Below, in pieces: positions 27,893-50,528 of a DNA stretch of 64,000 bases. The notes under the pieces are model-generated. The model was not told the origin of the DNA and searched no databases. It saw nothing but the letters and a program-made list of their open reading frames with translations. The stretch comes from Treponema sp. (GTDB lineage Bacteria > Spirochaetota > Spirochaetia > Treponematales > Breznakiellaceae). Position 1 is the first letter of the stretch. Each line of letters opens with the position of its first letter. The stretch is taken from positions 4,270 through 68,269 of the forward strand of contig WQZG01000009.1 in NCBI GenBank assembly GCA_009780855.1, in the 5' to 3' direction. A program made the translations under genes and the position numbers.

Positions 27893-27960
27893 CGTTAAAA
27901 GCTAACTTTATTTTAAATCCTGCAAGAATTTTTCAAAAAATAACATAAAGGAAATTGAGA

Positions 27961-34147: not shown

Positions 34148-34717
34148 TCAGCCATTATTAATTTTGTTTTCCTGAACTATTTTTTCTATTCCCTTTACAA
34201 ACACATTAAAACTATGAGATTTATTTTTTGTAATATCCATATATTGGGCTATTTTTTTTGCTCCGGTTATTTGTTGGTAAGCAGGAACAAGTTTTCTTAA
34301 TTCTTGTTTTGCATTCGCTATAGAATCTGGATTACGAAAAATAGCTTTTGCCTTATAACCAGAGAGACTAATACCATAGCCTTTTTCGACAGCATCAAGA
34401 TCACCCAGATACCAGGATTCCAGTTCTGTACATACTATTCTTATGAGTGTATCAGAATGTCTGGTTTCGTATATAAGATTATGTAAATCTGTTTTTAGTT
34501 TTTTACAATCAGCAGAGTCTTTATCACAAACAATCACAAATTGTACATTTTGTTCTTTCCACCCCCGTGTTTTAATCGGGATTGATTTTTTAAGAGCAGG
34601 CTTGCCATTATGGGCAATACATTGAAATGTATAAGACTGAGGAAAGATTTGCGGAAGAATAATCGACAAAAGTTCTTTCATTGATGATTCTTCCAGAAGA
34701 AAGACGATTTTTACCAT
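34148..34717 (-). CDS. DUF4276 family protein (Toprim-like)
   Basis: 'MVKIVFLLEESSMKELL', 'FVIVCDKDSADC', 'ELESWYLGDLDA', 'KSHSFNVF' match my recollection of the DUF4276 pattern. The ATG at 34717 lies 1 nt after the ATPase stop. Confidence 0.65.
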   Translation of the reverse strand: MVKIVFLLEESSMKELLSIILPQIFPQSYTFQCIAHNGKPALKKSIPIKTRGWKEQNVQFVIVCDKDSADCKKLKTDLHNLIYETRHSDTLIRIVCTELESWYLGDLDAVEKGYGISLSGYKAKAIFRNPDSIANAKQELRKLVPAYQQITGAKKIAQYMDITKNKSHSFNVFVKGIEKIVQENKINNG

Positions 34718-34718
34718 T

Positions 34719-35888
34719 CTATAAAAGTCCTTCCTGCCATAATTCACCCAATTTATCTCCATTTTGATAAAGGGAAACAATGTTTTTATCATTTAAAGCA
34801 GCAACTATGTCTGATACACCGTTTTGTTTTTTAATTATGAACAATTCTTCCGGTTCAATGGCATTTACAAAGTTGGGTGAATGGGTAGAAATAAAAACTT
34901 GCCCTCCGGAGAATGAATATTCCCTGAATTCTTCCGCAAGAATTTCCAATAAATGCGGGTATAACTGATTCTCCGGTTCTTCTATACAGAGCAGTTTATG
35001 CGGATTTGGGTCTGCCAACATTACCAGATATGCGAACATCTTAATTGTTCCGTCAGATACAAATCTGGCAGAAAAGGGATTTTTGAACTTACCGTCCGAA
35101 AAACGCAGAAATATTTGCCCTTCTTCTGTCTGTTTTGACTCAACATTACTTATTCCCGGAATTTTTTCACGCATTTTCTGTAAAATTCCTTTAAATTTAT
35201 CCGGATGTTTATCATGAAGAAATTGCGTAACATTCGCTAAATTATCCCCGCTTCGGCTAAGCTGCTCAATATAAGAAATATCCTGAGTTTGGCGCGCGGC
35301 GTAAATATGGAAATCCGAGACAAACCAATCTTCAATAAATTTCCGAAAATCGACTACTGCAGTAAAATGTTTGATTTGTCCAAATGTTTTTATAGCCAGT
35401 ATATCCGGTGAATCCAATGTAAATTTTTCATGTTTAGTATCAAGTATATTTTTAAATTCAGCATTATCATTTGCTATTGCTTCTCCCACCCCCTGTGAAA
35501 AATCAATAATTTTTACAGTTGATACTTGTTTTTCTCTTGTTACTTCAATAATTAATTGCTCTTTAACAATGATTGGCGTGTTTTTTGTATCTGTGTTTAA
35601 TCGAAGCTCATAAGTATAAAAGGGAGAGGTATCAAATGTTTTATATTGAAAGCTTAGGCAAATATCGCCCATTGTTTCTCTTGTGTGAACTTCATCGTAT
35701 CCGCCGCGCGCCTGCAATGCGGAACGTATATTTTCTGTCAGACATTGTTTCATAAATCCAAAAACATCAAAAAAAGTCGATTTACCGGAACCATTTTCAC
35801 CCAGAAACACAGCAAGCTGACCTATATTCTTAATATCCACATTCTGCAATGTTTTGTAGTTTTCAATGTGAATGTTAATGATTTTCAT
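34719..35888 (-). CDS. AAA_21-type ABC/SMC-like ATPase
   Basis: Walker A 'GENGSGKST', signature-like 'FVSDGT', Walker B 'LLCIEEPENQLYP', H-loop 'STHSP'. Confidence 0.85.
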   Translation of the reverse strand: MKIINIHIENYKTLQNVDIKNIGQLAVFLGENGSGKSTFFDVFGFMKQCLTENIRSALQARGGYDEVHTRETMGDICLSFQYKTFDTSPFYTYELRLNTDTKNTPIIVKEQLIIEVTREKQVSTVKIIDFSQGVGEAIANDNAEFKNILDTKHEKFTLDSPDILAIKTFGQIKHFTAVVDFRKFIEDWFVSDFHIYAARQTQDISYIEQLSRSGDNLANVTQFLHDKHPDKFKGILQKMREKIPGISNVESKQTEEGQIFLRFSDGKFKNPFSARFVSDGTIKMFAYLVMLADPNPHKLLCIEEPENQLYPHLLEILAEEFREYSFSGGQVFISTHSPNFVNAIEPEELFIIKKQNGVSDIVAALNDKNIVSLYQNGDKLGELWQEGLL

Positions 35889-36066
35889 GTTTTACCTGCC
35901 TTTTTAATACTTTACAGTGAGAATAGTTTAACTTTTAAATAAAATCAAACATATCATAAGCCGTGTCTGCAATACAATGCAGCGCTCCTAAATAAAAAAA
36001 ATTTCTATGTAAACTTTTCTCCATGCTCTTCTATAATTGCAATTTTTCATCTATAATGGTTCGATT

Positions 36067-37788
36067 ATGGCGGCCTCCGGGTCTTCAATTCCGCAAAATC
36101 CTCTTATTATCCAAAGCGACAGAACTTTGCTTCTTGATGTACACGCGCCCAGGGCGGAGGAAGCCCGCGCCGCGATTTTGCCTTTTGCGGAACTGGAAAA
36201 ATCCCCGGAGCATATCCATACCTACCGCATTACTTCCCTTTCGCTGTGGAACGCGGCCGGCGCCGGGTTTTCTCCGGCAGATGTGGCAAATACCCTTAAC
36301 GAGTTTACCCGTTATCCGGTTCCGTCCGGCATTATCGAGGGATTCGGCGATACCATGTCCAGGTACGGGAAGATTCGCATGGCCTCAGGAGGTTCAGATT
36401 CAGGCGAACTTTCACTGGTCTGCGATGACCAGGCGATCGTTACAGAAATTGCCGCGGCAAAAAGCCTGGCAAAACTGCTTAACAAAACATCAAGCGGTTT
36501 TTGCCTTAAGCTGACCGACAGGGGAAGCGTCAAACGGGAGCTGATTAGGCTGGGCTGGCCGGTGCACGATGAAGCCCCTCTTGTCGAAGGGGAGCCGATG
36601 GAGATTACGCTTAAGCAGCCGGATACTCCGGGAAATCCCCTTGTGCTGCGCGATTACCAGATCGAAGCAGCCCGCGCTGTTACAGGATCGGGGGGGCCGG
36701 GAACAGGTTACGGGGTGGTTGTCCTGCCGTGCGGGGCGGGCAAGACTGTAGTCGGAATTATCCTGATGTCCATGCTAAAAACCAATACATTGATCCTCAC
36801 AGCGAATGTGGCGGCGGTTCACCAGTGGATGCAGGAACTTCTGGACAAGACCTTTCTTAAACCGGAAGATATAGCCGAATATTCCGGCGATACAAAATCT
36901 ACGGCGCCGGTCACGGTCGCGACTTACCAGATTATTACATGGCGGCCTGACAAGGACGGGGAATTCCCGCACTTTAAACTGTTCAGGGAAAGGCCCTGGG
37001 GATTAATCATCTATGATGAAGTCCACCTGCTGCCGGCTCCGGTATTCAGGGTGACCGCTGAATTGCAGGCGGTCAGGCGGCTGGGCCTTACAGCGACACT
37101 GGTCAGGGAAGACGGCGCCGAAGATGCGGTATTCAGCCTTGTGGGGCCGAAACGCTACGATGTGCCGTGGAAGGATCTGGAGGCAAAGGGCTGGATTGCG
37201 GAAGCTTTGTGTACGGAAATACGTCTTGATTTGCCGGATAATCTCAAGATTCCGTACGCGTCGGCTTCAAAACGGGAGAAGTACAGGACAGCCAGCGAAA
37301 ACCCGCTCAAGGAAACTGTTGTCCGCGAATTAATCGAGAACCACAGCGAAGATCAAATTCTGGTAATCGGACAGTATATCAGCCAGCTTGAGTCCCTGGC
37401 TAAAATGTTAAAGACTCCGATTATTACCGGCAGCACGCCGAACAGGGAAAGGGAGACAATTTACAGCGCCTTCCGCAAGGGCGAGATTCCGGTCATTGTC
37501 GTCAGCAGGGTGGCGAACTTCGCAATCGATCTGCCGGACGCTTCAATGGCGATTCAGGTGTCAGGCACCTTTGGTTCCCGCCAGGAGGAGGCGCAGAGAC
37601 TGGGAAGGGTACTCAGGCCCAAAGGCATGGGACACAATTCGTGGTTTTATACGCTGGTGTCGCGGGGCACTGTCGAAGAGGACTTCGCGGCAAAGCGCAG
37701 GCAGTTTCTCGCGGAGCAGGGATACAAGTACACAATCCAGCACTGGACCGCAGATGAATTAAAAATGCCCGGAGGCGCACAGCCGTGA
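36067..37788 (+). CDS. XPB/ERCC3-type SF2 DNA helicase
   Basis: Walker A 'CGAGKT', 'YDEVHLL', and the XPB-specific RED motif in 'TATLVREDG'. The N-terminal domain 'PLIIQSDRTLLLDV...IHTYRITSLSLWNA' is typical of bacterial/archaeal XPB. The ATG at 36067 is preferred over the TTG at 36037. Confidence 0.9.
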   Translation: MAASGSSIPQNPLIIQSDRTLLLDVHAPRAEEARAAILPFAELEKSPEHIHTYRITSLSLWNAAGAGFSPADVANTLNEFTRYPVPSGIIEGFGDTMSRYGKIRMASGGSDSGELSLVCDDQAIVTEIAAAKSLAKLLNKTSSGFCLKLTDRGSVKRELIRLGWPVHDEAPLVEGEPMEITLKQPDTPGNPLVLRDYQIEAARAVTGSGGPGTGYGVVVLPCGAGKTVVGIILMSMLKTNTLILTANVAAVHQWMQELLDKTFLKPEDIAEYSGDTKSTAPVTVATYQIITWRPDKDGEFPHFKLFRERPWGLIIYDEVHLLPAPVFRVTAELQAVRRLGLTATLVREDGAEDAVFSLVGPKRYDVPWKDLEAKGWIAEALCTEIRLDLPDNLKIPYASASKREKYRTASENPLKETVVRELIENHSEDQILVIGQYISQLESLAKMLKTPIITGSTPNRERETIYSAFRKGEIPVIVVSRVANFAIDLPDASMAIQVSGTFGSRQEEAQRLGRVLRPKGMGHNSWFYTLVSRGTVEEDFAAKRRQFLAEQGYKYTIQHWTADELKMPGGAQP

Positions 37789-39974
37789 CAGGTTCTGCAT
37801 ACCGTTTCCGTTCAACAGAAGAATGGAAATCCGCGATCATGAACCTTCCCCTTTTTTTTGAGCTGATGAGGAGTGTCTTTGGCAACATAAAAACTCCCTA
37901 CAACAAGCAGCGCCTGTTGGAAGATCTGTTTGTGTTCCTGTCCAGGGATGATATTCAGAAAACAATTTTGTCCATGATTGATGAAGACGATCACAGGGTA
38001 ATTGCGGCGGCGGCCCTCCTCGGTGATCCGACTCCCACGGAACTGGAAGAATTTTTCCAGGGTGAAAAGAACAGCGCCGTTCTGCGCGGACATCTGCTTA
38101 ACATGGAAGAAAGACTGTTATTGTTCAGGTTCAATGATGATACCCGGCGCGTGCGCAGGCTTGCCCTCAATCCGGTTCTTGTATCCATACTTGGACCCCT
38201 TGCCGCTGATACGGGAATATTGTTCCCGTCACAGGCAATAGCACAGTCTGACGCGGCCGGGCAGGCAGCAGTATACAACGACACCCGCACAGGAGAATTT
38301 TCTGCCGGAGACGACAGGGCCCTTGGCGCTTTTTTTGCGTTTGTATCCGCGGAAGAAGAATTTTTTAAAACAGACGGTATACGCAAAAAAGTTTATGACC
38401 AGGGCCAAAAACTTTTCCCTGGCCTGGACCTGGGAACGGCCGCTGAAGTGCTTATCAACCTGGGGCTTTTTTATACCGAAGGAGAAAAGTTCCTCCCTGT
38501 TAACAGAAAAATCCGGAGATTCGGGGAACTGGAACCTGGCGGGAGACGGGAGTACTGGGCTGCCGGCCTCTATTTTAATCTGGAAGAAAAAAAGGGAGAA
38601 AATAAAAACGGCGCTTACGGCATCTTTGGGCTGTCAAACCGGATCAGCAGCCTGGCTTCCCTGATTCATCAGTTCTGCTGCTGCCTGGCCGGCGACAGGA
38701 AATATTTAAAAGCAACCCTGTTAAAAATTTTAAAAATTTTGGAACAGCAGAATATAAACGGCTCACGGGAGTTTACCGGAAGGATCAACGCGCGGGTTTT
38801 TCTTGACGCGCTGATCACGGCGGGGATACTAAAAAATTGCGCTGCGGAAAATTATTGCAGCTATATACCGGTGACCGCCGCGGAAACCAGGGGCCCGCAA
38901 ATTGCGATGGATTCGCCGTTTACTTTTATTTTGTATCCGGGAATACGGTTCAAGGATATTTTAAAATTTTGTGTCTTTGCGGATTTAAGGGAAGAAGAAC
39001 CGTTTGGGTTTGAACTGACCAAAACGTCGGCGGTGCGCGGTTTCGACTTCGGCCTGGATTCCAAAAGCATGATCGCGATCCTCAATGACCTGTCAGGGAA
39101 CCGTATTGACGAAGGTTTGATATGGACGCTTAAGGACTGGGAGTCCAGATACGCTTCGGTTTTGCTGCATGACGGATTGGTACTTTATCTTTCCCAGGAT
39201 AAACAATACCTGGCGGACGCCGAACCAATTGTTTCGCTGATCCAGAATAAAATCGCGCCCGGCCTGTATGTGTTAAAAGGAGAAAGCGGTCCGGCGGCGG
39301 CCGCGCTGCAGAGGGCGGGCGTGGATATTGTCGCAAGGCCCCGCCGGCAGACAGAATCCGGATACGGATCAACATTCCCGTCTCCGTCAGGATCAGCAAA
39401 CGATACGCAGGTTTTTGCGATTGGAAATCCCGAATCTTCAAGTGCATCGGCTCCCGCGCCGGAAGACAGTCCGGCGGATGGTAATCCGGCTGCAGTCAGT
39501 TTACCTCCGGGAAATTCCAAAGATGAGACCAAAAATCATTTTTTAAAATTACTTGATAAAATGAAACTGACCGGACCGGAAAGGGAAGAACTGGCGGCCC
39601 GCATAGAACGCCGCGTTATAATCACGGAAACCCAACTGGACAGGACCGCGATAAAGCATCAGAAACTTGAAGCCAGGGGACTGGATTACGCCGGAAAAAT
39701 TTCCATTGTCAAACAGGCATTAATAGACGGTTCTTCGCTTGAGGTTTCCCGTACAGACATGGGGACGGAATCCGGCGTCACAGCCGGGGTTCCTTCGGCC
39801 CTGGAAAAAAAAGAAGGCGAAAGCGTGCTTGTTCTAAAACCATTCAGCGGGCAAGAATCCGGCTGGGCCGGTGAAACAGAGGCCGGCGGCGATCTGCAGG
39901 AAAATCTGATCCGTATCCCGTTGGGAAAGATCAGTTTATTGCGCATGATCAAAAGATCGATTTTTAATTATTAG
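37785..39974 (+). CDS. XPB-associated large protein (helicase-associated, p52/Tfb2-like by synteny only)
   Basis: The GTG start overlaps the XPB TGA (GTGA at 37785-37788). As I recall, actinobacterial XPB genes have a similar ~750-aa neighbour. I recognise no catalytic motif. There is a Pro/Ser-rich linker around 39330-39520. Confidence 0.55.
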   Translation: MTGSAYRFRSTEEWKSAIMNLPLFFELMRSVFGNIKTPYNKQRLLEDLFVFLSRDDIQKTILSMIDEDDHRVIAAAALLGDPTPTELEEFFQGEKNSAVLRGHLLNMEERLLLFRFNDDTRRVRRLALNPVLVSILGPLAADTGILFPSQAIAQSDAAGQAAVYNDTRTGEFSAGDDRALGAFFAFVSAEEEFFKTDGIRKKVYDQGQKLFPGLDLGTAAEVLINLGLFYTEGEKFLPVNRKIRRFGELEPGGRREYWAAGLYFNLEEKKGENKNGAYGIFGLSNRISSLASLIHQFCCCLAGDRKYLKATLLKILKILEQQNINGSREFTGRINARVFLDALITAGILKNCAAENYCSYIPVTAAETRGPQIAMDSPFTFILYPGIRFKDILKFCVFADLREEEPFGFELTKTSAVRGFDFGLDSKSMIAILNDLSGNRIDEGLIWTLKDWESRYASVLLHDGLVLYLSQDKQYLADAEPIVSLIQNKIAPGLYVLKGESGPAAAALQRAGVDIVARPRRQTESGYGSTFPSPSGSANDTQVFAIGNPESSSASAPAPEDSPADGNPAAVSLPPGNSKDETKNHFLKLLDKMKLTGPEREELAARIERRVIITETQLDRTAIKHQKLEARGLDYAGKISIVKQALIDGSSLEVSRTDMGTESGVTAGVPSALEKKEGESVLVLKPFSGQESGWAGETEAGGDLQENLIRIPLGKISLLRMIKRSIFNY

Positions 39975-40020
39975 TTTTAATTATCAGGCGCGGACAGCGC
40001 CGGTTATACAGGAGTTACAT

Positions 40021-40800
40021 ATGCCGTTACTGCCATTTTCGGTACAGCAAACAGAAACAAGCCAGGAGAAACTGGCTGTGCTTATTGACGCGGACAACAC
40101 ACAGCCTGCGATTATAGAAGGTCTTTTAAACGAAGTAGCCAAATACGGGATCGCGAGCATCAAACGAATTTACGGAGACTGGACAAGCACAAACCTGCGA
40201 TCCTGGAAAGACAGGCTGCTTGAATACGCGATACAGCCCATTCAGCAGTTCTCGTACACAACGGGAAAAAACGCGACAGACTCGGCCATGATCATTGACG
40301 CCATGGATCTGCTTTACAGCGGCAAACTGGACGGCTTCTGCATTGTCTCAAGCGACTCCGATTTTACCCGCCTGGCCGCCCGCCTGCGCGAAAGCGGCCA
40401 CATGGTATACGGCTTTGGCGAAAAGAAAACCCCGCGCGCCTTTGTCTCTGTCTGTGACAAGTTCATCTACACCGAAATACTTAGGGACGCCCAGGTCGAG
40501 GAAGAAGCCGACGAAGACAAAAAGACAGTCGCAAAACGCAAAGAATTCAAAGTCGACCAGAAATTACTGAGACTGCTCCACGACGCCGTTGACGACCAGG
40601 CCGACGAATCAGGCTGGGCCAATCTTTCAAAAGTAGGCCAGGGAATCAACAAAAGGTCAAGCGAGTTTGACCCGCGCAACTACGGCTTCCGCAAACTCGG
40701 TGATCTCTTCAGGGCAATTTCCCAGTTTGAAACCGAGGAACGCCCGCAGGAAAACGGCATGGGCCGGCAGGTCAACATACGCTGGAAGAAGAAGCGGTAG
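40021..40800 (+). CDS. NYN (LabA-like PIN-fold nuclease) + OST-HTH/LOTUS domain protein
   Basis: 'KLAVLIDADN', 'KRIYGDW', 'GKNATDSAMIIDAMD', 'FCIVSSDSDFTRLAARLRESG'. The C-terminal 'GWANLSKVGQGINKRSSEFDPRNYGFRKLGDLF' is LOTUS-like. AGGAG RBS. Confidence 0.85.
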   Translation: MPLLPFSVQQTETSQEKLAVLIDADNTQPAIIEGLLNEVAKYGIASIKRIYGDWTSTNLRSWKDRLLEYAIQPIQQFSYTTGKNATDSAMIIDAMDLLYSGKLDGFCIVSSDSDFTRLAARLRESGHMVYGFGEKKTPRAFVSVCDKFIYTEILRDAQVEEEADEDKKTVAKRKEFKVDQKLLRLLHDAVDDQADESGWANLSKVGQGINKRSSEFDPRNYGFRKLGDLFRAISQFETEERPQENGMGRQVNIRWKKKR

Positions 40801-40929: not shown

Positions 40930-40996
40930 TTTGGCCAATGAATGGATTCATTATGCAAAAAGCGATTTGGCAACTGCTCAACACATTTGTTTATAG
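40916..40996 (+). pseudogene. N-terminal fragment of a HEPN-domain gene
   Basis: 'MTALDLANEWIHYAKSDLATAQHICL*' is only 26 aa, with a HEPN-like N-terminal helix. It overlaps the MNT fragment by 14 nt, as in MNT-HEPN pairs, and ends where the LacI gene begins. Confidence 0.5.
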
Positions 40997-42088
40997 ATTC
41001 ATATTAGATTCCCATAGAAGACTGTGATTCGTTATATAACTGACATTTTCTTTAAGTATAAGACTATGAGATATCATTATTTCTCTCCGGGATATTGGAT
41101 TTTTTTGGTCGAGTATTTTTTCCAGTATCCGGACTGCGGTATATCCCTGTAATATTGGATCCTGGTAAACCACTGCGCCCAGTTTCCCTTTTTCAAGACA
41201 TTCCACTGCTTCATCATCAATATCGTGCTGAATAATAACCGATTTTTGACATTCATATTTTTTAAGAATATTATGCAATTGGGTACAATGTGAAGAAAGC
41301 ATATATATTACATCAGGTTTCTTTTTTACTTCTTTAAGAAAAGATGCAAATTTTTGTTCGATTTTAGGATCATTAAAATATGTATCTATGTAATTTATGG
41401 AACGGTAAATTAACGGATATTGCTCTTCGATAACCGATAAAAATCCCTTTAACCGTTGTACATCCGGATTTGATAAATTTATTTGATTTTTACCCGGTGA
41501 TTTATGGACAATCAGGACTTCACGTTCTGACTTTGATTCCAGAATTTTACCGGTAAAATTAGCTGCCAGACGGCCGCCTTCATTTGTATTTGTTCCGACA
41601 TAACCTAATCCCCGTTTTAGGGGATCATCAATATTAAAAAAGATAAAAGGAATGTTGGCTTTTTCAACCAGTTTTATAATTTTGTCCATATCGAAAAGAT
41701 TCAGATACACAAATGCCGCGGCATCCAACCCGTTTTTTATTTCATTTTTTAACAAATTACAGTATTTTTCCGTATCATATGAGGGTATCTTAATAAAATG
41801 GACTTCATAGTTGAGGGATTTTAAATAATCAGCAGCTATTAATGCGCCTTTTTCAATATCCTGCCAAAAAAAATCAGGTTGTATTGCCGTAAACAGGGCA
41901 ATTTTTTGAATTTTTTTTCTTACAAGAATTTGAGAAGCTCTATGCGGAATATAATTGCTTTTTTCAGCATAATCCAGGATACGTTTTCTTAATGCTGCCG
42001 AGACATAACCTGAATTATTGAATACACGGCTTACCGTTATGAAAGAAATACCCAAATCGTTGGCTATTTCCTTCTGGGTTATGGACAT
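40991..42088 (-). CDS. LacI family transcriptional regulator
   Basis: 'ITQKEIANDLGISFITVSRVFNNSGYVSAALRKRILDYAEKSNYIP' HTH plus a periplasmic-binding-like sugar domain. Confidence 0.9.
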   Translation of the reverse strand: MSITQKEIANDLGISFITVSRVFNNSGYVSAALRKRILDYAEKSNYIPHRASQILVRKKIQKIALFTAIQPDFFWQDIEKGALIAADYLKSLNYEVHFIKIPSYDTEKYCNLLKNEIKNGLDAAAFVYLNLFDMDKIIKLVEKANIPFIFFNIDDPLKRGLGYVGTNTNEGGRLAANFTGKILESKSEREVLIVHKSPGKNQINLSNPDVQRLKGFLSVIEEQYPLIYRSINYIDTYFNDPKIEQKFASFLKEVKKKPDVIYMLSSHCTQLHNILKKYECQKSVIIQHDIDDEAVECLEKGKLGAVVYQDPILQGYTAVRILEKILDQKNPISRREIMISHSLILKENVSYITNHSLLWESNMNL

Positions 42089-42157
42089 AATTAAATTATA
42101 TAAAAATTAAACAAATGTATCAATGCGAAAATTTCACTTGACAAATATATATTGGAT

Positions 42158-42175
42158 ATGATATACGTATATCAT
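42158..42175. promoter_or_regulatory. Candidate LacI-family operator (18-bp perfect palindrome with central CG)
   Basis: 'ATGATATACGTATATCAT' lies in the LacI/GH31 divergent region. A TTGACA sits at 42138-42143, 14 nt upstream. Confidence 0.55.
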
Positions 42176-42209
42176 ACGGGATTGAAAATAAAATAATTGA
42201 GGTTTGAAT

Positions 42210-44228
42210 ATGCCTTTATTTACAAGAGACGGTAACCGCTTAATATATCAATTTGATGCAGAAAAGCTTTGGGCAGAGCCGTGGGGAGTAAATAGTCTTC
42301 GTATTCGTTCGGCAAAAAGTGCAAAAATGCCCGGCGCCGCAGAAGATAATGAAGATTGGGCTTTGCTTTCACCAAAACCGTATGTTTCAGAAATTACTAT
42401 CAATGATGATATTGCAAAAATTAAGAATGGCAAAATCGAACTTCAGATAACCCGGTATGGAGTTATAAAAGTTTTTAATGATAAAGGAAAACTCCTGCTT
42501 GCCGAGTATATGAGGATCCGCAAAGATATAACTGATTCTCATACATACAGCAGCCTTAAAATAGAAGCCAGGGAATTTAAACCAAATATTGGCGGTGATT
42601 TTGAACTAACAATGCGTTTTGAATCTGTCTCGCAGGATGAAAAAATATACGGTATGGGCCAATATCAGCATCCTTACTTAAATTTAAAAGGAATGGAACT
42701 GGAATTGGCTCAAAGAAACACCCAGGCCAGTGTACCTTTTGCTGTTTCTAACCTTGGATATGGGTTCCTTTGGAATAATCCGGCTGTAGGAAGGGTATGT
42801 TTTGGCCGCAATATTACAACCTGGACAGCTAAATCCACAAAAAAACTTGATTATTGGGTTACTGCCGGAGATAATCCTGCAGAAATAATAAAAACATATG
42901 CCAGTGTTACCGGAACTGTTCCCATGATGCCCGATTATGCAATGGGTTTTTGGCAATGTAAATTACGTTATCAAACGCAGGAAGAGCTGCTTAATATAGC
43001 AAAAGAATATAAAAAACGTGAATTGCCAATTTCTGTAATAGTTGTGGATTTTTTTCATTGGCCTTTGCAGGGCGAATGGAAATTTGATCCGGTTTATTGG
43101 CCAAATCCGGACGCCATGGTCCGGGAACTTAAAGATATGGGTATTGAACTCATGGTTTCTGTTTGGCCCACAGTTGATTATAAAAGTGAAAATTGGAATG
43201 AAATGATTGAAAATGGATATCTTATACGCACAGAACGGGGTTTTCGCATTAGCCTGGGAGTGCAGGGCAATACAGTTTATTTCGATACGACAAATCCCGA
43301 TGCCAGAGCCTATTTGTGGGAAAAAATAAAAAAGAATTATTACAATAAAGGAATTAAAATTTTTTGGCTTGATGAAGCCGAACCGGAATATACAGTCTAT
43401 GATTTTGATAATTACCGTTATTATTTGGGACCGAATATCCAAATCGGCAATATTTATCCTGTTATGTATGCAAAAACCCTTTTTGACGGAATGAAAGCAG
43501 AAGGTCAGGAAAAAATTATTAATCTGGTCCGCTGCGCATGGGCAGGAAGTCAGCATTACGGTGCATTGGTTTGGAGCGGCGATGTATATTCATCATTTGA
43601 ATCGCTTCGATGTCAATTACCTGCCGGATTAAATATGGGTCTTGCCGGAATTCCGTGGTGGACCACAGATATTGGAGGTTTTATCGGAGGAAATATAAAT
43701 GATCCTCATTTTCATGAATTATTTATCCGCTGGTTTGAATGGAGTTGTTTTTGCCCGGTGATGAGGCTTCATGGTGATCGTGCGCCAAAAAAACCTCCGA
43801 TTGGAATGACAGGAGGAGCTCTTTGTTCATCAGGCGCGGATAATGAAGTATGGTCATTTTCTCCTGAAGTTTATGAAATCTGCAAAAAATATCTATTTTT
43901 AAGGGAAAAACTTAAACCGTATATAACAATTCAAATGAAAGAAGCTCATGAAAACGGAACCCCGGTAATGCGCCCATTATTTTATGATTTTCCTGATGAT
44001 TCTGCTGCGTGGGAAACAGAAGACGAGTATATGTTTGGTCCGGATTATCTTGTTGCCCCTGTATTATATGAAGGACAAACAGAAAGAGAAGTATATCTGC
44101 CTGTCGATCGGTCTATCGAACAAACATGGACAAATATGTGGACAAATGAAACTTTTAATGGAGGGAAACGGATTATTGCGGCCGCTCCCCTGGAAACCAT
44201 ACCTGTCTTTATCAGGACAAAAATATAA
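42210..44228 (+). CDS. Glycoside hydrolase family 31 (alpha-xylosidase/alpha-glucosidase-like)
   Basis: 'GFWQCKLRYQTQEEL', 'VIVVDFFHW', 'KIFWLDEAEPE' (nucleophile region), 'WSGD', 'WWTTDIGGF', 'MRLHGD'. ATG at 42210 with a GAGG RBS. Confidence 0.85.
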   Translation: MPLFTRDGNRLIYQFDAEKLWAEPWGVNSLRIRSAKSAKMPGAAEDNEDWALLSPKPYVSEITINDDIAKIKNGKIELQITRYGVIKVFNDKGKLLLAEYMRIRKDITDSHTYSSLKIEAREFKPNIGGDFELTMRFESVSQDEKIYGMGQYQHPYLNLKGMELELAQRNTQASVPFAVSNLGYGFLWNNPAVGRVCFGRNITTWTAKSTKKLDYWVTAGDNPAEIIKTYASVTGTVPMMPDYAMGFWQCKLRYQTQEELLNIAKEYKKRELPISVIVVDFFHWPLQGEWKFDPVYWPNPDAMVRELKDMGIELMVSVWPTVDYKSENWNEMIENGYLIRTERGFRISLGVQGNTVYFDTTNPDARAYLWEKIKKNYYNKGIKIFWLDEAEPEYTVYDFDNYRYYLGPNIQIGNIYPVMYAKTLFDGMKAEGQEKIINLVRCAWAGSQHYGALVWSGDVYSSFESLRCQLPAGLNMGLAGIPWWTTDIGGFIGGNINDPHFHELFIRWFEWSCFCPVMRLHGDRAPKKPPIGMTGGALCSSGADNEVWSFSPEVYEICKKYLFLREKLKPYITIQMKEAHENGTPVMRPLFYDFPDDSAAWETEDEYMFGPDYLVAPVLYEGQTEREVYLPVDRSIEQTWTNMWTNETFNGGKRIIAAAPLETIPVFIRTKI

Positions 44229-44241
44229 CGTAAATACAATT

Positions 44242-45162
44242 ATGATAACATCAGGAAAAATCAATAAAAACATATTATTGATCAAAAAAAATTATACGCT
44301 TTATCTTTTTTTACTTCCCGCCATTATTCTATATTTTTGTTTTTATTATATCCCCATTTATGGCGTACAAATTGCCTTTAAAAATTATTCCCCTGCAGCC
44401 GGTATTACCGGCAGTCCATGGGTTGGATTCACTCATTTTTTGAGATTTTTCAGGACCAATCAGTTTAAAGTAGTTATAAGTAATACTTTAATACTTAGTT
44501 TATATGGATTGATCGCCGGATTTCCCATGCCCATAATTTTGGCTTTGATTATGAATTCAATCAAATCCAATAAATTTAAACGGGTTTTACAAACTGTTAC
44601 ATATTTACCTCATTTTATTTCAACTGTTGTATTTGTCAGCATGATTTTACTTTTTTTATCTCCTTCAGGCCTTTTTGGACAAATTAGCAGACTTATGGGA
44701 TCAACACCCGGAAATATTATGGGAGAAGCTTATATGTTTCCCCATATTTATGTTTGGTCCGGAATATGGCAGCAAATTGGCTGGAGCAGTATCATCTATC
44801 TTGCTGCTCTCTCATCGATTGATCCAACGCTTTATGAGGCAGCTACAATAGACGGCGCAAGCAAATGGCAAAAAATAATTCAAATAGAAATTCCTTCCAT
44901 TATGCCTACCTGTATTATTTTACTAATTCTTAATGCCGGTAATATTTTAAATGTAAGTTTTGAAAAAACCTTTTTACTTCAAAACAGTCTTAATCTCTCG
45001 CGAAGTGAGGTAATAACTACCTATATCTATAAAATAGGAATTCAAAGTACTCAATATAGTTTTTCTGCGGCAGTAGGTTTGTTCAATAATATCATAAATT
45101 TTATAGTCCTTGCCCTGGTTAATTATATTTCGGGGAAATTAAGTGAAACAAATCTTTGGTAA
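44242..45162 (+). CDS. Carbohydrate ABC transporter permease (LplB-like)
   Basis: EAA loop 'EAATIDGASKWQKIIQIEIP'. The true start is likely the ATG at 44242, after the GH31 stop. The longer ORF-track start (43984) overlaps GH31. Confidence 0.9.
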   Translation: MITSGKINKNILLIKKNYTLYLFLLPAIILYFCFYYIPIYGVQIAFKNYSPAAGITGSPWVGFTHFLRFFRTNQFKVVISNTLILSLYGLIAGFPMPIILALIMNSIKSNKFKRVLQTVTYLPHFISTVVFVSMILLFLSPSGLFGQISRLMGSTPGNIMGEAYMFPHIYVWSGIWQQIGWSSIIYLAALSSIDPTLYEAATIDGASKWQKIIQIEIPSIMPTCIILLILNAGNILNVSFEKTFLLQNSLNLSRSEVITTYIYKIGIQSTQYSFSAAVGLFNNIINFIVLALVNYISGKLSETNLW

Positions 45163-45173
45163 GAGGTATATGG

Positions 45174-46049
45174 ATGATCGGCAAACAAAAATCATACAAT
45201 GACTTATTTTTTGATTTGTTTGTTTTTATCTTTGGCATTGTTATTTTAATAATAACGGCTTATCCTCTGTACTTTATTATAATTGCTTCCTTTAGTGATT
45301 CCATAGCGGTTAATTCCGGTAAAGTCTGGTTATTGCCTTCAAATATTACCTTTGAAGGTTATATAAAAGTCTTTCAGGATGAGCGAATCTGGAGAGGTTA
45401 TCGGAATACAATTTTGTATACAATATCGGGTACTTTTATCAGTCTTTTGTTCACTCTGCCTGCTGCATATTCACTTTCGCGCAAAGATCTGCCGGGCAGA
45501 AAAATTATCATGATGTATTTTATTTTCACAATGTTTTTTTCCGGCGGATTAATTCCGACGTACCTGACAGTCAGACAATTTGGGCTGGCCAACACATTTT
45601 GGGTTCTCATTATACCTTTCTCGGTGAGTGCCTATAACCTGATAATTGCCAGAACATTCTTCTCATCTACAATACCTGTGGAACTTTTTGAAGCCGCTAC
45701 CATTGATGGATGCGGTAATACCAGATTTTTTGTATTAATAGTACTTCCTTTATCAAAAGCCATCATTGCAGTTATTGGTTTATATTATGCGGTTGGTCAG
45801 TGGAATCAATTTTTTCTTTCCCTGATTTATGTCCGTAAGGAATCATTGGTTCCTCTCCAAATGGTATTGAGAAATTTACTTTTACAAAACCAATTGATAT
45901 CCGGAGTATATAACGAAGAAGACCAAAGAATCGGCGAAATAATGCGCTATAGTTTTATCATTGTTTCTACAGTACCAATTATGTTTTTTTATCCGCTTAT
46001 TCAAAAATATTTTACCAAAGGAGTAATGATTGGTTCCATCAAGGGCTGA
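45174..46049 (+). CDS. Carbohydrate ABC transporter permease (LplC-like)
   Basis: EAA loop 'EAATIDGCGNTRFFVLIVLP'. ATG at 45174 with an AAGAGG RBS. Confidence 0.9.
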   Translation: MIGKQKSYNDLFFDLFVFIFGIVILIITAYPLYFIIIASFSDSIAVNSGKVWLLPSNITFEGYIKVFQDERIWRGYRNTILYTISGTFISLLFTLPAAYSLSRKDLPGRKIIMMYFIFTMFFSGGLIPTYLTVRQFGLANTFWVLIIPFSVSAYNLIIARTFFSSTIPVELFEAATIDGCGNTRFFVLIVLPLSKAIIAVIGLYYAVGQWNQFFLSLIYVRKESLVPLQMVLRNLLLQNQLISGVYNEEDQRIGEIMRYSFIIVSTVPIMFFYPLIQKYFTKGVMIGSIKG

Positions 46050-46094
46050 TATTACTGCCTATTGGTAATATATAAATTTTTTCAGGAGGATTTT

Positions 46095-47672
46095 ATGAAG
46101 AATTTTATCATTTTTTTCTTTGTTTTGTCGTTATTGATACCTGCTGCTGTATTTTCAGGCGGCAGCAGTGCCGGCCGGGGTGCTGAAACGAACAGCGTTG
46201 CTTTTAATAAAGAAGGATATCCCATTGTAACAGCGCCATATACTTTAAAAGCAGTAACTGTTAAGCAGCAATTCACCAGGCTTTATGATCAATTACCTGC
46301 ATTCCAAAGATTAGAAGCCAAAACAGGAGTTCACATTGATTGGGATTATATTGGCGCCGATTGGGCAACTCAAAAACCTCTTGTACTTGCTTCCGGTGAT
46401 TTACCTGATATTTTTTACGGACGAACTGTTTTAACAGAAGATGATGTGATTTCAAACCGGGAATTATTTTATAACCTTACTCCGCTAATCGATCAATATG
46501 GCAATAATTTAAAAAACATATTTCAGGAAAATCCGATTATGCTTAATTTGGCAAAAGCTTATGATGGCAATATTTGGGGGCTCCCTCACAGACAATTTTA
46601 CAGACCCCAAAATTATGCCCTTTGGATGATTAATCAAAATTGGCTGGATAAACTTGGTTTAAGTATGCCGACAACAACCGATGAATTAATAACTGTATTA
46701 AGGGCTTTTAAAAATGGCGATCCCAACGGTAACGGAAAAGCTGATGAAATACCATGGTCATGGACATGGGTTTCCGGAATTGCCGGTCCAATGGATATAT
46801 TCGGAGCATTCGGCGTCGTTATAGACAGCTCCAATTCAGGATTCCTCTCCGTTACCAATGGAAAAGTACAATATGTTTTTGCACAGGATGGTTTTCAGGA
46901 TGGCGTTGCTTACCTGCATCAATTATATGCTGAAGGATTAATTGATCAGGAAGTTTTTACCCATGATAATTCAATGTGGAGGGCAAAAGTTCTGCAAAAT
47001 GATCCTGAAATTGTAGGTATGTTCGGGCAATGGGGAAGATCCAGTTTTATTGGAGCGGATCGTGCCGCGTATTATCCAATGGTAATGCCCTTAAAGGGAC
47101 CAAAAGGATACCAGTTTTGGGATCAAAATCCCGAAGTTACCGAGTATGCCAGATATACTTTTGAAATATCAAAAGCATGTACAAGACCGGAAATCGCAAT
47201 GCGCTGGATTGACACTATTTATGATGACATGACAAGTTTGGAAGTATTTTTGGGCACAGATAATTTAAAAATGCTTGATAATGGCAGAATTGAAGTAATT
47301 GAAAGCGGCAATGATAAATGGATTTATGGATTAAATGATTTATTTGCAGGTTATGCAAGCGATCAATTAAATTCAAAATTAATAATGACAGTTGAAGATG
47401 AAATGATGGCGGACAAAAAACGTTTATCTGCCTATTATCCCAAAGAATACTATCCTTACGGGATGGTTGCCATGACACCGCAGGAAGTGGATGAACTGGC
47501 TTTGCTCCGTACTGACATACAATCATTTGCCATGCAGCAAACAGCCACCTGGATAACCAAGGGTGGTGTAGAAAATGAATACGCAGGCTTTATCAAACAA
47601 TTGGAAAATATGGGCCTTCGCAGAATGGAGCAGATTTATCAGCAAATTTATGATCGATATATTGGAAAATAA
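46095..47672 (+). CDS. ABC transporter extracellular solute-binding protein
   Basis: Signal peptide 'MKNFIIFFFVLSLLIPAAVFSGG' with no lipobox Cys. LplA-like size. ATG at 46095 with an AGGAGGA RBS. Confidence 0.85.
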   Translation: MKNFIIFFFVLSLLIPAAVFSGGSSAGRGAETNSVAFNKEGYPIVTAPYTLKAVTVKQQFTRLYDQLPAFQRLEAKTGVHIDWDYIGADWATQKPLVLASGDLPDIFYGRTVLTEDDVISNRELFYNLTPLIDQYGNNLKNIFQENPIMLNLAKAYDGNIWGLPHRQFYRPQNYALWMINQNWLDKLGLSMPTTTDELITVLRAFKNGDPNGNGKADEIPWSWTWVSGIAGPMDIFGAFGVVIDSSNSGFLSVTNGKVQYVFAQDGFQDGVAYLHQLYAEGLIDQEVFTHDNSMWRAKVLQNDPEIVGMFGQWGRSSFIGADRAAYYPMVMPLKGPKGYQFWDQNPEVTEYARYTFEISKACTRPEIAMRWIDTIYDDMTSLEVFLGTDNLKMLDNGRIEVIESGNDKWIYGLNDLFAGYASDQLNSKLIMTVEDEMMADKKRLSAYYPKEYYPYGMVAMTPQEVDELALLRTDIQSFAMQQTATWITKGGVENEYAGFIKQLENMGLRRMEQIYQQIYDRYIGK

Positions 47673-47726: not shown

Positions 47727-48359
47727 TTATTTTTTCCCAAGCCCCAAAAAATAAGTTTCAAACGATTCTGAACGGCAGGCCTGGGGCTTAAAACTTTTGG
47801 CGGATTTAAAAAGATCACGCATGGATTTTAAAAAATTACCGGTGTCTCCGCCCTGGAAAACTTTTACAGCCATGTTCCCGTTATTGGCCAGAGCCGTATG
47901 AGCGTAACTCAGCGCGGTCTCGGCAAGTTCCAGGGAACGCAGAGTATCAACCGAACGGATGCCGGTTGTGGCCGGAGCGGCGTCGCTGATTATCAGGTTA
48001 AACGGACCGTGCGATTCAATGGTTTCCCTGATTCCGGCAAGGGTAAAATCACCCTGAATAAAAACAAGCTCCGGCCTGTCAAAAAGGCCCCTGTCATACT
48101 GGCGCGAAAGCGGGCACAAGTCGACAGACACAAGTGACAGGCCGGAACTGCCGCAAAATTTACGCAGCAGGTAAAGGCTCCAGCTCCCGGGCGCGGCGCC
48201 CAGTTCGAGTACCTTTATACCCCTGCCTGACCCGGCGCCTGAGTATCTGAGCAGATTAAATTTTTCGTCAATTTCCATGAGTTTATAGACGGAACGGGCC
48301 GGGTAGCCTTCTTTTTGCGCCTTTAGTGACCAGTGGTCGGGTTTGCTGTAATTTGCCAT
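47727..48359 (-). CDS. rlmE: 23S rRNA (uridine-2'-O)-methyltransferase RlmE/FtsJ
   Basis: 'ARSVYKLMEIDEKFNLL', 'VLELGAAPGSWS', 'IISDAAPATTG', 'MAVKVFQG'. Confidence 0.8.
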   Translation of the reverse strand: MANYSKPDHWSLKAQKEGYPARSVYKLMEIDEKFNLLRYSGAGSGRGIKVLELGAAPGSWSLYLLRKFCGSSGLSLVSVDLCPLSRQYDRGLFDRPELVFIQGDFTLAGIRETIESHGPFNLIISDAAPATTGIRSVDTLRSLELAETALSYAHTALANNGNMAVKVFQGGDTGNFLKSMRDLFKSAKSFKPQACRSESFETYFLGLGKK

Positions 48360-48369
48360 AATTAAATAA

Positions 48370-49473: not shown

Positions 49474-49505
49474 ATTTTTTTTCTGATGTATAAATTTCAT
49501 TTCTG

Positions 49506-50498: not shown

Positions 50499-50528
50499 GG
50501 GTATTAAAACGGCAGTTTATTTAAAGTT

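What the first reader, a model, noticed from the sequence alone, without database searches (positions are those of the whole stretch)
36037..40800. XPB helicase, translationally coupled 729-aa partner and a NYN-LOTUS nuclease as one plus-strand cluster
36067-37788 is an unmistakable XPB (GAGKT, DEVH, RED motif).

Its TGA overlaps the GTG of a 729-aa ORF (GTGA at 37785-37788). That ORF has no catalytic motif I can recognise, a Pro/Ser-rich linker and a charged C-terminal domain.

A NYN (PIN-like RNase) + OST-HTH/LOTUS protein follows 46 nt downstream, with its own AGGAG.

Bacterial XPB has no settled pathway. Archaeal XPB partners with the nuclease Bax1, and eukaryotic XPB partners with p52/Tfb2. 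Animal LOTUS domains (Oskar/TDRD) bind and stimulate the SF2 helicase Vasa.

A helicase + adaptor + LOTUS-tethered nuclease unit is therefore a coherent but untested hypothesis. Its location between an OLD-like module and MNT/HEPN debris suggests a conflict or nucleic-acid surveillance role rather than housekeeping repair.
Basis: partly seen in the sequence, partly recalled or inferred. Interest (0 to 1): 0.68.

Follow-up and report, generated by a model that had tools for sequence, protein, structure and literature searches.

The report
XPB–p52-like–NYN-LOTUS operon in spirochaetes
A termite-gut spirochaete has a tightly packed three-gene operon for the DNA helicase XPB, a bacterial look-alike of XPB's eukaryotic TFIIH partner p52, and an RNA-cutting NYN-LOTUS enzyme; the first two genes are paired across bacterial phyla, the third joins them only in spirochaetes, and the set looks like core nucleic-acid maintenance, not anti-phage defence.

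Summary
XPB (36067-37788), a 729-aa ORF that starts in a GTGA overlap (37785-39974) and a NYN+LOTUS protein 46 nt downstream (40021-40800) form one plus-strand operon.

The 729-aa partner is a p52/Tfb2-like protein. All 12 best PDB fold matches are TFIIH p52/Tfb2. It carries the XPB-N-terminal-like "clutch" domain (PF13625). Some relatives hit Pfam Tfb2. Its C-terminal domain is WYL-like by fold only.

XPB plus a PF13625 partner recurs in Bacillota, Deinococcota, Actinomycetota, Cyanobacteriota and Spirochaetota.

NYN-LOTUS directly follows the partner in 38 of 44 informative termite-type Treponema genomes, and in a separate high-GC Spirochaetia lineage. It does so in none of 46 XPB loci from more distant bacteria. 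In one subclade XPB has moved away but partner and NYN-LOTUS stay adjacent.

The conflict-island reading is not supported. The HEC-01 module and the sugar-utilisation cluster are low-GC, strain-specific insertions. The ancestral neighbours are FtsJ, polyprenyl synthase and an M23 peptidase. PADLOC, plasmid and viral searches give nothing for the partner or NYN-LOTUS.

The LOTUS domain is the minimal bacterial type, which lacks the Vasa-binding extension.

Verdict: a new variant of the XPB-plus-partner(-plus-nuclease) theme. Physical coupling of the nuclease is untested.

The parts
36052..36057 (+). TATAAT -10 box 9 nt before the XPB ATG; predicts a leaderless or near-leaderless operon mRNA
   Evidence: Sequence. 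A -10-like hexamer sits exactly 9 nt upstream of an in-frame start in 38 of 54 loci of the same clade, against 3 of 50 (any spacing) in other phyla.
36067..37788 (+). XPB helicase/translocase (573 aa). N-terminal domain aa 13-139 (36103-36483); helicase core aa 193-557 (36643-37737).
   Evidence: NCBIfam NF045503, 834 bits. Pfam Helicase_C_3, ResIII and ERCC3_RAD25_C. GAGKT, DEVH and RED motifs.
37785..39974 (+). p52/Tfb2-like XPB partner (729 aa); its GTG start overlaps the XPB TGA
   Evidence: All homologues carry PF27388 'TP_0021_N'. All 12 top Foldseek matches are TFIIH p52/Tfb2. 3 of 22 homologues hit Pfam Tfb2.
37812..38894 (+). Partner N-terminal helical/winged-helix region (aa ~10-370). 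aa 1-170 are modelled poorly; aa 170-370 are modelled well.
   Evidence: AF2 pLDDT profile. Foldseek alignments to p52 span 320-475 columns. Domain borders are approximate.
38901..39344 (+). Partner 'clutch'-like domain, homologous to the XPB N-terminal domain (aa ~373-520)
   Evidence: PF13625 match at aa 409-475, 24 bits in the window protein (below the cut-off). 22 of 22 homologues match at E up to 1, best 4.7e-11. In a distant paralogue the Tfb2 profile (positions 264-354) aligns to the same region.
39351..39518 (+). Disordered Pro/Ser-rich linker (aa 523-578)
   Evidence: pLDDT 30-43. Length and sequence vary among homologues.
39519..39953 (+). Conserved C-terminal domain with a WYL/Sm-like barrel fold (aa 579-723)
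   Evidence: Most conserved part of the partner. AF2 pLDDT 71. Top Foldseek matches are BrxR, PafBC, CapW and DriD, E 5e-4 to 2e-2. No sequence-level match.
40010..40014 (+). AGGAG ribosome-binding site of the NYN-LOTUS gene
   Evidence: Read. No terminator-like site lies between the three genes.
40021..40800 (+). NYN (aa 17-151, 40069-40473) + minimal LOTUS/OST-HTH (aa 177-245, 40549-40755) nuclease, 259 aa
   Evidence: Pfam NYN 130 bits and OST-HTH 65 bits. Acidic residues D23, D25, D112 and D114 are present. 74-90% identical across the clade.
34148..35888 (-). Not part of the unit: HEC-01 candidate defence pair (ABC/OLD-like ATPase + DUF4276), a low-GC strain-specific insertion
   Evidence: PADLOC HEC-01, 469 and 203 bits. 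GC 33.6%. No homologue in any related locus.
40991..47672 (.). Not part of the unit: LacI/GH31/ABC-permease block inserted between NYN-LOTUS and the ancestral neighbour FtsJ
   Evidence: Pfam. GC 35-41%. Absent from related loci, where FtsJ follows NYN-LOTUS directly.
47727..50498 (.). Ancestral housekeeping neighbours: FtsJ (-), polyprenyl synthase (+), LysM-M23 peptidase (+)
   Evidence: The same genes follow the trio in the same order in Leadbettera azotonutricia (L158) and in L012, L015, L018 and L039, at 50-67% identity.

Best explanation
This is a chromosomal housekeeping operon built on a bacterial XPB/p52-like pair.

Step 1, shown for genomics and inferred for biochemistry. XPB and the 729-aa protein are made in fixed proportion from a leaderless mRNA by translational coupling. 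They form a heterodimer through pairing of the XPB N-terminal domain with the partner's homologous 'clutch' domain. This is how p52 holds and stimulates XPB in TFIIH.

Step 2, inferred from fold only. The partner's C-terminal WYL-like barrel, on a flexible linker, binds a single-stranded nucleic-acid cue and targets or licenses the translocase.

Step 3, shown for conserved co-transcription only. In Spirochaetia a NYN-LOTUS endonuclease is expressed with the pair and acts in the same pathway. It most plausibly cuts RNA or single-stranded flaps exposed when XPB opens or translocates on DNA, for example at stalled transcription complexes, R-loops or G-rich structures. This would make it a functional analogue of XPB-Bax1 or TFIIH-XPG.

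The role is genome and transcript maintenance, not phage defence.
For: Partner is p52-like:
- The 12 best PDB matches are all p52/Tfb2 (E 4e-7 to 1e-4, 320-475 columns). The next matches are XPB N-terminal domains.
- PF13625 is found in 22 of 22 family members and Pfam Tfb2 in 3 of 22 (best 2.6e-7).
- In a distant paralogue, Tfb2 profile positions 264-354 align to the PF13625 region.

Pairing with XPB:
- 39 of 42 informative partner-centred loci have XPB immediately upstream.
- 33 of 45 loci have 4- or 8-nt overlaps.
- The same pairing occurs in Paenibacillus, Deinococcus, Gloeocapsopsis and, 3.5 kb apart, Tsukamurella.
- It occurs in at least 25 of 46 distant metagenomic XPB loci.

NYN-LOTUS linkage:
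- 38 of 44 informative loci have it directly after the partner.
- It is the only recurrent third gene in an XPB-centred sample of 80 loci.
- It is present in a second, high-GC Spirochaetia lineage.
- It stays next to the partner in the subclade where XPB is no longer adjacent.
- The median intergenic gap is 10 nt, and there is no terminator.

Housekeeping role:
- The ancestral neighbours are housekeeping genes.
- XPB is 70-77% and NYN-LOTUS 74-85% identical across the clade.
- There are no PADLOC hits for the partner or NYN-LOTUS.
- No XPB orthologue was found on viral contigs, and the partner has no match in the plasmid collection.
- In T. pallidum, TP0380 (XPB), TP0894 (NYN-LOTUS) and the Pfam namesake TP_0021 all persist.

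Link to transcription and repair:
- An M. tuberculosis ercc3 knockout is hypersusceptible to rifampicin (PMC10534295).
- A TP0380 variant is associated with a faster SNP rate (PMC8735616).
Against:
- TM-scores to p52 are low (0.2-0.3) because the model is multi-domain and aa 1-170 are poorly predicted.
- The window protein's own PF13625 score is below Pfam's cut-off.
- The WYL assignment rests on marginal fold matches only.
- The NYN-LOTUS linkage has been lost at least three times within the clade.
- The linkage is absent from gut and rumen Treponema, Sphaerochaetaceae, Oceanispirochaeta and all other phyla sampled.
- The three genes appear to be dispersed in T. pallidum, so the pair does not need the nuclease in cis.
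- The T. pallidum two-hybrid interolog tables contain no TP0380-TP0894 pair, and TP0021 is absent from them.
- The 2010 survey described bacterial NYN+OST-HTH proteins as stand-alone enzymes.
Confidence: 0.55

Rival explanations
1. Operon passenger. XPB and the partner are a functional pair, but NYN-LOTUS is an independent housekeeping RNase, the 'stand-alone RNA-degradation enzyme' of Anantharaman et al. 2010. It merely shares a promoter with them in one part of the spirochaete tree.
For: - The linkage is restricted to Spirochaetia and has been lost at least three times.
- T. pallidum keeps the genes at distant locus tags.
- NYN-LOTUS is far more conserved than the partner (74-85% against 31-47%), as expected for an enzyme with its own essential substrates.
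- More than 8000 relatives exist across bacteria, and the 2010 survey found no conserved neighbourhoods for them.
Against: - Flanking genes are otherwise almost completely scrambled, yet this adjacency survives in 38 of 44 genomes and in a second, high-GC lineage.
- The gap is often 1-4 nt.
- The partner/NYN-LOTUS adjacency persists even where XPB has left.
- It is the only recurrent third gene around XPB.
Confidence: 0.3
2. Defence or conflict system. A helicase-adaptor-nuclease module senses and destroys invading nucleic acid.
For: - In the window the operon sits next to a HEC-01 candidate defence pair and a HEPN-like stub.
- WYL-like domains occur in the defence regulators BrxR and CapW.
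- XPB gives weak hits to SF2 helicases of defence systems such as PbeA.
- Some plasmid-borne XPB loci lie near toxin-antitoxin genes or transposases.
Against: - HEC-01 and the stub are unique to this genome and have low GC.
- The ancestral context is housekeeping.
- The family is near-universal and slowly evolving within the clade.
- There is no PADLOC match for the partner or NYN-LOTUS.
- No XPB orthologue occurs in viral contigs, and the partner has no plasmid match.
- All three families are retained in T. pallidum.
Confidence: 0.08
3. Oskar/Vasa-like tether. The LOTUS domain binds the XPB helicase core directly and stimulates it, bringing the NYN nuclease along.
For: - Animal LOTUS domains bind and activate the SF2 helicase Vasa (PMC7498356 and PMC12803171).
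- Gene adjacency is consistent with it.
Against: - Vasa binding needs the extended LOTUS helix, which is found only in animals.
- Bacterial minimal LOTUS domains, including Treponema TP0894, bind G4 RNA.
- Only 14 residues follow the LOTUS match here.
- Adjacency tracks the partner rather than XPB: in the L033/L035/L038 clade XPB is not adjacent but NYN-LOTUS still follows the partner.
Confidence: 0.05
4. The 729-aa protein is itself the nuclease, a Bax1-like partner.
For: Archaeal XPB is paired with the nuclease Bax1.
Against: - There is no nuclease family in Pfam, NCBIfam or PADLOC.
- No Bax1 structure appears among the top 50 Foldseek matches.
- No catalytic motif is conserved outside the clutch and C-terminal barrel.
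Confidence: 0.02

Closest known systems
Eukaryotic TFIIH XPB-p52(-p8) module
   Same: - An XPB with an N-terminal domain is paired with a multi-winged-helix protein that carries a homologous 'clutch' domain.
- The best structural matches of the partner are p52/Tfb2.
- Weak Pfam Tfb2 hits occur in relatives.
   Different: - No other TFIIH subunits are present.
- In place of the p8-binding C-terminus, the partner has a disordered linker and a WYL-like barrel.
- It is 729 aa against about 460.
- Sequence similarity is marginal.
- It is encoded as an overlapping bacterial operon.
- Some phyla have two tandem partner paralogues.
Archaeal XPB-Bax1 helicase-nuclease
   Same: - An XPB gene is adjacent to a dedicated partner, and a nuclease is in the same unit.
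- It is a plausible 'unwind and cut' logic.
   Different: - The partner here is not Bax1-like and has no nuclease domain.
- The nuclease is a separate NYN (PIN-like) + LOTUS protein.
- That nuclease is present only in Spirochaetia.
Bacterial NYN + OST-HTH/LOTUS proteins (LabA/COG1432 group; the MARF1-like 'LK-nuclease + OST-HTH')
   Same: - The domain architecture is identical and scores well above the Pfam cut-offs.
- The Treponema orthologue TP0894 has a LOTUS domain that binds G4 RNA.
   Different: - These proteins were reported to have no conserved gene neighbourhood.
- Here the gene sits in a conserved operon with XPB and its partner.
WYL-domain sensors (PafBC, DriD, CapW, BrxR)
   Same: The partner's C-terminal domain has its best fold matches to these proteins. 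Several of those solved structures are complexes with single-stranded DNA (entry titles).
   Different: - There is no sequence-level WYL match.
- The domain is fused to a p52-like scaffold rather than to an HTH transcription factor.
- Ligand binding is untested.
Mycobacterial XPB (Rv0861c/Ercc3)
   Same: - It is an orthologous helicase, about 50% identical to actinobacterial XPBs.
- A PF13625 'helicase-associated domain' protein lies nearby in Tsukamurella.
   Different: - No NYN-LOTUS is linked.
- The 2012 biochemical study stated that no p52 homologue was known in bacteria.

Membership tests
XPB/ERCC3/Rad25 helicase | Scores above the curated equivalog cut-off; has Walker A, DEVH and RED motifs plus the N-terminal domain | tested here: met
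   NF045503 834 bits against a cut-off of 610. PF13625 109 bits at aa 13-139 and ERCC3_RAD25_C 157 bits. Motifs seen.
TFIIH p52/Tfb2 | Overall fold: an array of winged-helix domains like p52 | tested here: met
   All 12 best Foldseek PDB matches are p52/Tfb2 from human, yeast and Chaetomium, E 4e-7 to 1e-4, 320-475 aligned columns. Caveats: low TM-scores and a poorly modelled N-terminus.
TFIIH p52/Tfb2 | 'Clutch' domain homologous to the XPB N-terminal domain | tested here: met
   PF13625 matches 22 of 22 family members at E up to 1. The window protein scores 24 bits, below the 34.2 cut-off. Tfb2 profile positions 264-354 align to this region in L118.
TFIIH p52/Tfb2 | Sequence membership of Pfam Tfb2 (PF03849) above the gathering score | tested here: not met
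   The window protein has no hit. 3 of 22 relatives hit, best E 2.6e-7. L118 scores 25 bits against a cut-off of 34.5. This is homology-level similarity, not family membership.
TFIIH p52/Tfb2 | C-terminal p8/Tfb5-binding domain | tested here: inconclusive
   The C-terminus is a linker plus a WYL-like barrel. No p8-like gene was seen in the loci. Residue-level mapping onto the p52 C-terminus is not available with these tools.
TFIIH p52/Tfb2 | Binds XPB and stimulates its ATPase | not testable with these tools
   Only genomic coupling is available: overlapping genes in 33 of 45 loci and pairing across five phyla.
Bacterial NYN + OST-HTH (LabA/COG1432, MARF1-like) | NYN and OST-HTH domains above Pfam cut-offs, with the catalytic acidic residues | tested here: met
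   NYN 130 bits (cut-off 24.2) and OST-HTH 64.7 bits (cut-off 23.8). D23, D25, D112 and D114 are present.
Extended LOTUS (Vasa-binding type) | Extra C-terminal helix after the LOTUS core | tested here: not met
   The LOTUS match ends at aa 245 of 259. The extended type is reported only in animals (PMC7498356). This was judged from sequence length, not from a structure.
WYL domain | Sm-like barrel matching WYL proteins, and a Pfam WYL hit | tested here: inconclusive
   By fold, BrxR, PafBC, CapW and DriD are the top matches, E 5e-4 to 2e-2. By sequence there is no hit.
XPB-Bax1 system | Bax1 nuclease adjacent to XPB | tested here: not met
   There is no Bax1-like fold or family in the partner or in NYN-LOTUS.
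Known or candidate anti-phage defence systems (PADLOC) | Component proteins match defence-system models; patchy, island-associated distribution | tested here: not met
   Partner and NYN-LOTUS have 0 hits. XPB has only generic SF2 hits. The genes sit in a conserved core context. No XPB orthologue occurs on viral contigs.

The most novel reading that the evidence does not exclude
XPB, the p52-like partner and NYN-LOTUS form a ternary machine, a minimal bacterial counterpart of TFIIH-XPG. The partner's WYL-like domain senses exposed single strands at stalled transcription complexes, R-loops or G-quadruplexes. XPB translocates to open or remodel the DNA. The LOTUS-guided NYN nuclease cuts the trapped G-rich RNA or flap. 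If so, the XPB-p52 pairing is not a eukaryotic invention but an ancient module, either shared with bacteria or acquired from them.
Probability: 0.18. Interest if true: 0.82.

Novelty: new variant of a known kind. Interest (0 to 1): 0.6.

Why it matters
- What bacterial XPB does, and with whom, has been open since the 1990s. The 2012 biochemical study stated that no p52 homologue exists in bacteria, and a 2026 review still calls the bacterial role elusive.
- A pan-bacterial, translationally coupled p52-like partner gives a concrete complex to reconstitute.
- It bears on where the TFIIH core came from.
- The spirochaete-specific NYN-LOTUS gene is the first conserved neighbourhood found here for a nuclease family reported in 2010 to have none. 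It gives a testable clue to the substrate (RNA or G-rich strands).
- Three cultured species with complete genomes carry the trio: T. primitia ZAS-2, L. azotonutricia ZAS-9 and B. homolactica.

Tried and rejected
- Sequence searches of the partner profile and of its C-terminal domain against PDB gave nothing meaningful.
- tblastn of the partner against plasmids found no match, because the protein evolves too fast.
- I briefly suspected XPB-partner gene fusions in the high-GC loci L074 and L086. I rejected this: the long ORFs are out-of-frame artefacts of high GC.
- A scan for XPB orthologues in viral contigs returned only distant helicase cores at 24-31% identity.
- Rfam found nothing in 33.5-42.5 kb.
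- I inspected the upstream regions by eye for a shared operator or SOS-type palindrome. None was evident; only the conserved -10 box stood out.
- The T. pallidum two-hybrid supplements have no TP0380-TP0894 pair in the interolog tables, and TP0021 is absent. This is uninformative rather than negative. The main interaction table (file 1) was not read line by line.
- Literature searches for a described bacterial p52 homologue, or for XPB as a defence gene, found none.
- The first attempt at iterative profile building timed out and was rerun with faster settings.


Full report
**1. Observation**

ORF listing and direct reading confirm three consecutive plus-strand genes.
- XPB: ATG at 36067, with an alternative TTG at 36037; stop at 37788.
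- A 729-aa ORF at 37785-39974. Its GTG overlaps the XPB TGA as GTGA.
- A 259-aa ORF at 40021-40800, 46 nt further on, preceded by AGGAG at 40010-40014.

XPB scores 834 bits on NCBI's equivalog model for 'DNA repair helicase XPB' (cut-off 610). It has the N-terminal PF13625 domain, GAGKT, DEVH and RED. The third protein is NYN (130 bits) plus OST-HTH/LOTUS (65 bits) and has the expected acidic residues. No terminator-like site separates the genes, and no Rfam family lies in the region.

**2. What the 729-aa protein is**

Pfam on the window protein gives only a sub-threshold match to PF13625, the XPB N-terminal domain, at aa 409-475. NCBIfam and PADLOC give nothing.

Its homologues are annotated 'helicase-associated domain-containing protein' and carry PF27388, whose name is 'TP_0021_N'. 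The family is large: a profile search of 1.84 billion cluster representatives finds 1497 at E up to 0.001.

An AlphaFold2 model built on 22 homologues has these features:
- mean pLDDT 67;
- aa 170-520 at 80-89;
- N-terminal 170 aa poorly predicted;
- aa 523-578 disordered.

Searched against the PDB, its twelve best matches are all TFIIH p52/Tfb2 from human, yeast and Chaetomium (E 4e-7 to 1e-4, 320-475 aligned columns). XPB N-terminal domains come next.

At sequence level:
- all 22 members match PF13625 at E up to 1, and 3 of 22 match Pfam Tfb2, best 2.6e-7;
- in a distant paralogue the C-terminal part of the Tfb2 profile aligns to the PF13625 region, which is the p52 'clutch'.

A separate model of the conserved C-terminal domain (aa 575-729, pLDDT 71) has its best matches to the WYL-domain proteins BrxR, PafBC, CapW and DriD (E 5e-4 to 2e-2). 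It has no sequence-level support, so I treat this as a lead. No Bax1-like or nuclease fold appears.

**3. Is XPB-partner a general pair?**

A partner-centred scan of one genome per species gave 49 loci. Almost all are termite-gut Treponema or Spirochaetaceae, plus Sphaerochaetaceae and Oceanispirochaeta.
- XPB lies immediately upstream in 39 of 42 informative loci.
- The overlap is 4 or 8 nt in 33 of 45 measured junctions.

XPB orthologues at about 50% identity in the plasmid collection were inspected in four further phyla:
- Paenibacillus: an overlapping downstream partner.
- Deinococcus: one small gene lies between XPB and the partner.
- Gloeocapsopsis: the partner is immediately upstream.
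- Tsukamurella: the partner is 3.5 kb away.
All four partners carry PF13625.

In an XPB-centred metagenome sample of 80 loci, iterative profiles detect a partner beside XPB in most spirochaete loci. They detect one in at least 25 of 46 loci with XPB identity below 57%. Four loci have two tandem paralogues, and the two pairs scanned (L108, L118) have a SAP-domain match. The pair is therefore pan-bacterial.

The literature held here does not describe it. A 2012 paper states that no p52 homologue is known in bacteria. A 2026 review calls bacterial XPB function elusive.

**4. Is NYN-LOTUS part of the unit?**

In the partner-centred set, NYN-LOTUS follows the partner directly in 38 of 44 informative loci. 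The median gap is 10 nt, and 15 of 41 gaps are 4 nt or less. All other flanking genes are essentially unconserved.

Two look-ups that started from NYN-LOTUS returned the same trio: the complete Breznakiella homolactica genome and a JGI contig. T. primitia ZAS-2 and L. azotonutricia ZAS-9 also have it.

In the XPB-centred sample:
- NYN-LOTUS is the only recurrent third gene, in 10 loci; the next most frequent neighbour is a generic ABC-F ATPase.
- It is present in 7 of 10 informative loci of the termite-type clade.
- It is present in three loci of a separate high-GC (67-73%) Spirochaetia lineage whose XPB is 61% identical.
- It is present in none of 46 loci with XPB identity below 57%.

A neighbour-joining tree of partners indicates at least three independent losses of the adjacency. 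It also shows one subclade (L033, L035, L038) in which XPB is no longer adjacent while partner and NYN-LOTUS remain together.

The adjacency is absent in gut and rumen Treponema, Sphaerochaetaceae and Oceanispirochaeta. In T. pallidum the three families carry distant locus tags: TP0380, TP_0021 and TP0894. That TP_0021 is the orthologue is my inference from the Pfam name.

The linkage is therefore real and selected within Spirochaetia, but it is lineage-specific and dispensable.

**5. Context: defence or housekeeping?**

The upstream pair at 34148-35888 is a PADLOC HEC-01 candidate system (OLD/ABC-type ATPase plus DUF4276) with 33.6% GC. A 26-aa HEPN-like stub follows the operon. Neither these nor the LacI/GH31/ABC block at 40991-47672 (35-41% GC) has a counterpart in any related locus.

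In L. azotonutricia and four other genomes NYN-LOTUS is followed directly by FtsJ, polyprenyl synthase and, in four of the five, a LysM-M23 peptidase. HflX follows in one of them. These are the same genes found at 47727-54455 in the window. The window's 'conflict' neighbours are thus strain-specific insertions into a housekeeping block.

Further points against a defence role:
- no PADLOC hits for the partner or NYN-LOTUS;
- no XPB orthologue on viral contigs;
- no partner match on plasmids;
- strong conservation of XPB (70-77%) and NYN-LOTUS (74-85%) across the clade.

**6. Mechanism**

*Shown.* The operon structure and its conservation are shown. So is a conserved -10 box exactly 9 nt before the XPB start in 38 of 54 clade loci, which implies a leaderless transcript.

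*Inferred from family knowledge.* In TFIIH, p52 grips XPB through the clutch/N-terminal-domain pair and stimulates its ATPase (PMC6422496 and PMC3353954). Here XPB carries the N-terminal domain and the partner carries the clutch.

*Inferred from fold only.* The WYL-like domain may sense single strands.

*For NYN-LOTUS.* Bacterial LOTUS domains, including Treponema TP0894, bind G-rich/G4 RNA and lack the animal helix used for Vasa binding. An RNA- or flap-cutting role alongside the translocase is therefore more plausible than a LOTUS-helicase tether.

*Phenotypic hints.* These point to transcription or repair: rifampicin hypersusceptibility of an M. tuberculosis ercc3 knockout, and a TP0380 variant associated with a higher SNP rate.

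**7. Verdict**

The Vasa analogy and the conflict role are not supported.
- The closest known systems are TFIIH XPB-p52 and archaeal XPB-Bax1.
- This is a new variant of that theme, with a lineage-specific NYN-LOTUS nuclease.
- Physical coupling of the nuclease is the key untested step.

Noticed in passing
window 34148-35888 (-): A two-gene PADLOC HEC-01 candidate defence module (AAA_21/AAA_15 OLD-like ATPase overlapping a DUF4276 protein). It has 33.6% GC, is absent from all related loci, and looks like a recent insertion just upstream of the XPB promoter.
   Followed up: partly
window 40917-40997 (+): A 26-aa ORF (MTALDLANEWIHYAKSDLATAQHICL*) that looks like the N-terminus of a HEPN-domain protein. 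It is truncated where the LacI gene ends. The resemblance was judged by eye only.
   Followed up: no
window 40991-47672: A low-GC (35-41%) block of LacI, GH31 glycosidase, two ABC permeases and an unannotated 536-aa protein. It interrupts the otherwise conserved order NYN-LOTUS -> FtsJ -> polyprenyl synthase -> LysM-M23.
   Followed up: partly
window 36052-36069; loci L001-L098: A TATAAT-like box sits exactly 9 nt before the XPB start codon in 38 of 54 clade loci and there is no Shine-Dalgarno sequence, so XPB is probably translated from a leaderless mRNA. The pattern is weaker in other spirochaetes (11 of 16 loci, mostly at 8 nt). It is absent in other phyla (3 of 50).
   Followed up: partly
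L033 6980-10012, L035 1681-4648, L038 6980-9974: In this subclade the partner and NYN-LOTUS stay adjacent, but the upstream genes are amino-acid ABC transport/DDAH-like genes or a histidine kinase/sigma-54 activator, not XPB. Whether XPB is elsewhere in these genomes is unknown.
   Followed up: partly
L074 5824-10527, L077, L086 5950-10672: A high-GC (67-73%) Spirochaetia lineage from anaerobic digesters carries the same XPB-partner-NYN-LOTUS order. Long out-of-frame ORFs there mimic an XPB-partner fusion but are artefacts.
   Followed up: yes
L108 2253-6913, L118 7818-12424, L129 2883-7615, L135 4860-9393: In some non-spirochaete lineages XPB is followed by two tandem partner paralogues of about 750-790 aa. 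In the two pairs scanned (L108, L118) the first paralogue has a SAP-domain match. In L118 the second has a weak Tfb2 hit.
   Followed up: partly
L051 7661-8881 (-): In Tsukamurella an HNH endonuclease gene abuts XPB convergently, and the PF13625 partner lies 3.5 kb upstream beyond a sigma-70 factor gene. This may be a different nuclease association.
   Followed up: no
L065 6200-6757 (-): A second, inverted copy of the partner's C-terminal domain (185 aa, 173 bits) lies at the contig end, about 2.2 kb downstream of the complete partner gene.
   Followed up: no
window 58443-63992 (-), 50529-53060 (-), 27955-29874 (+): A 1849-aa ORF runs towards the window end and was not examined. An 843-aa ORF has no Pfam hit; its positional counterpart in L. 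azotonutricia carries PF27485 TP_0593_N. There is also a BACON-repeat protein. None was examined further.
   Followed up: no
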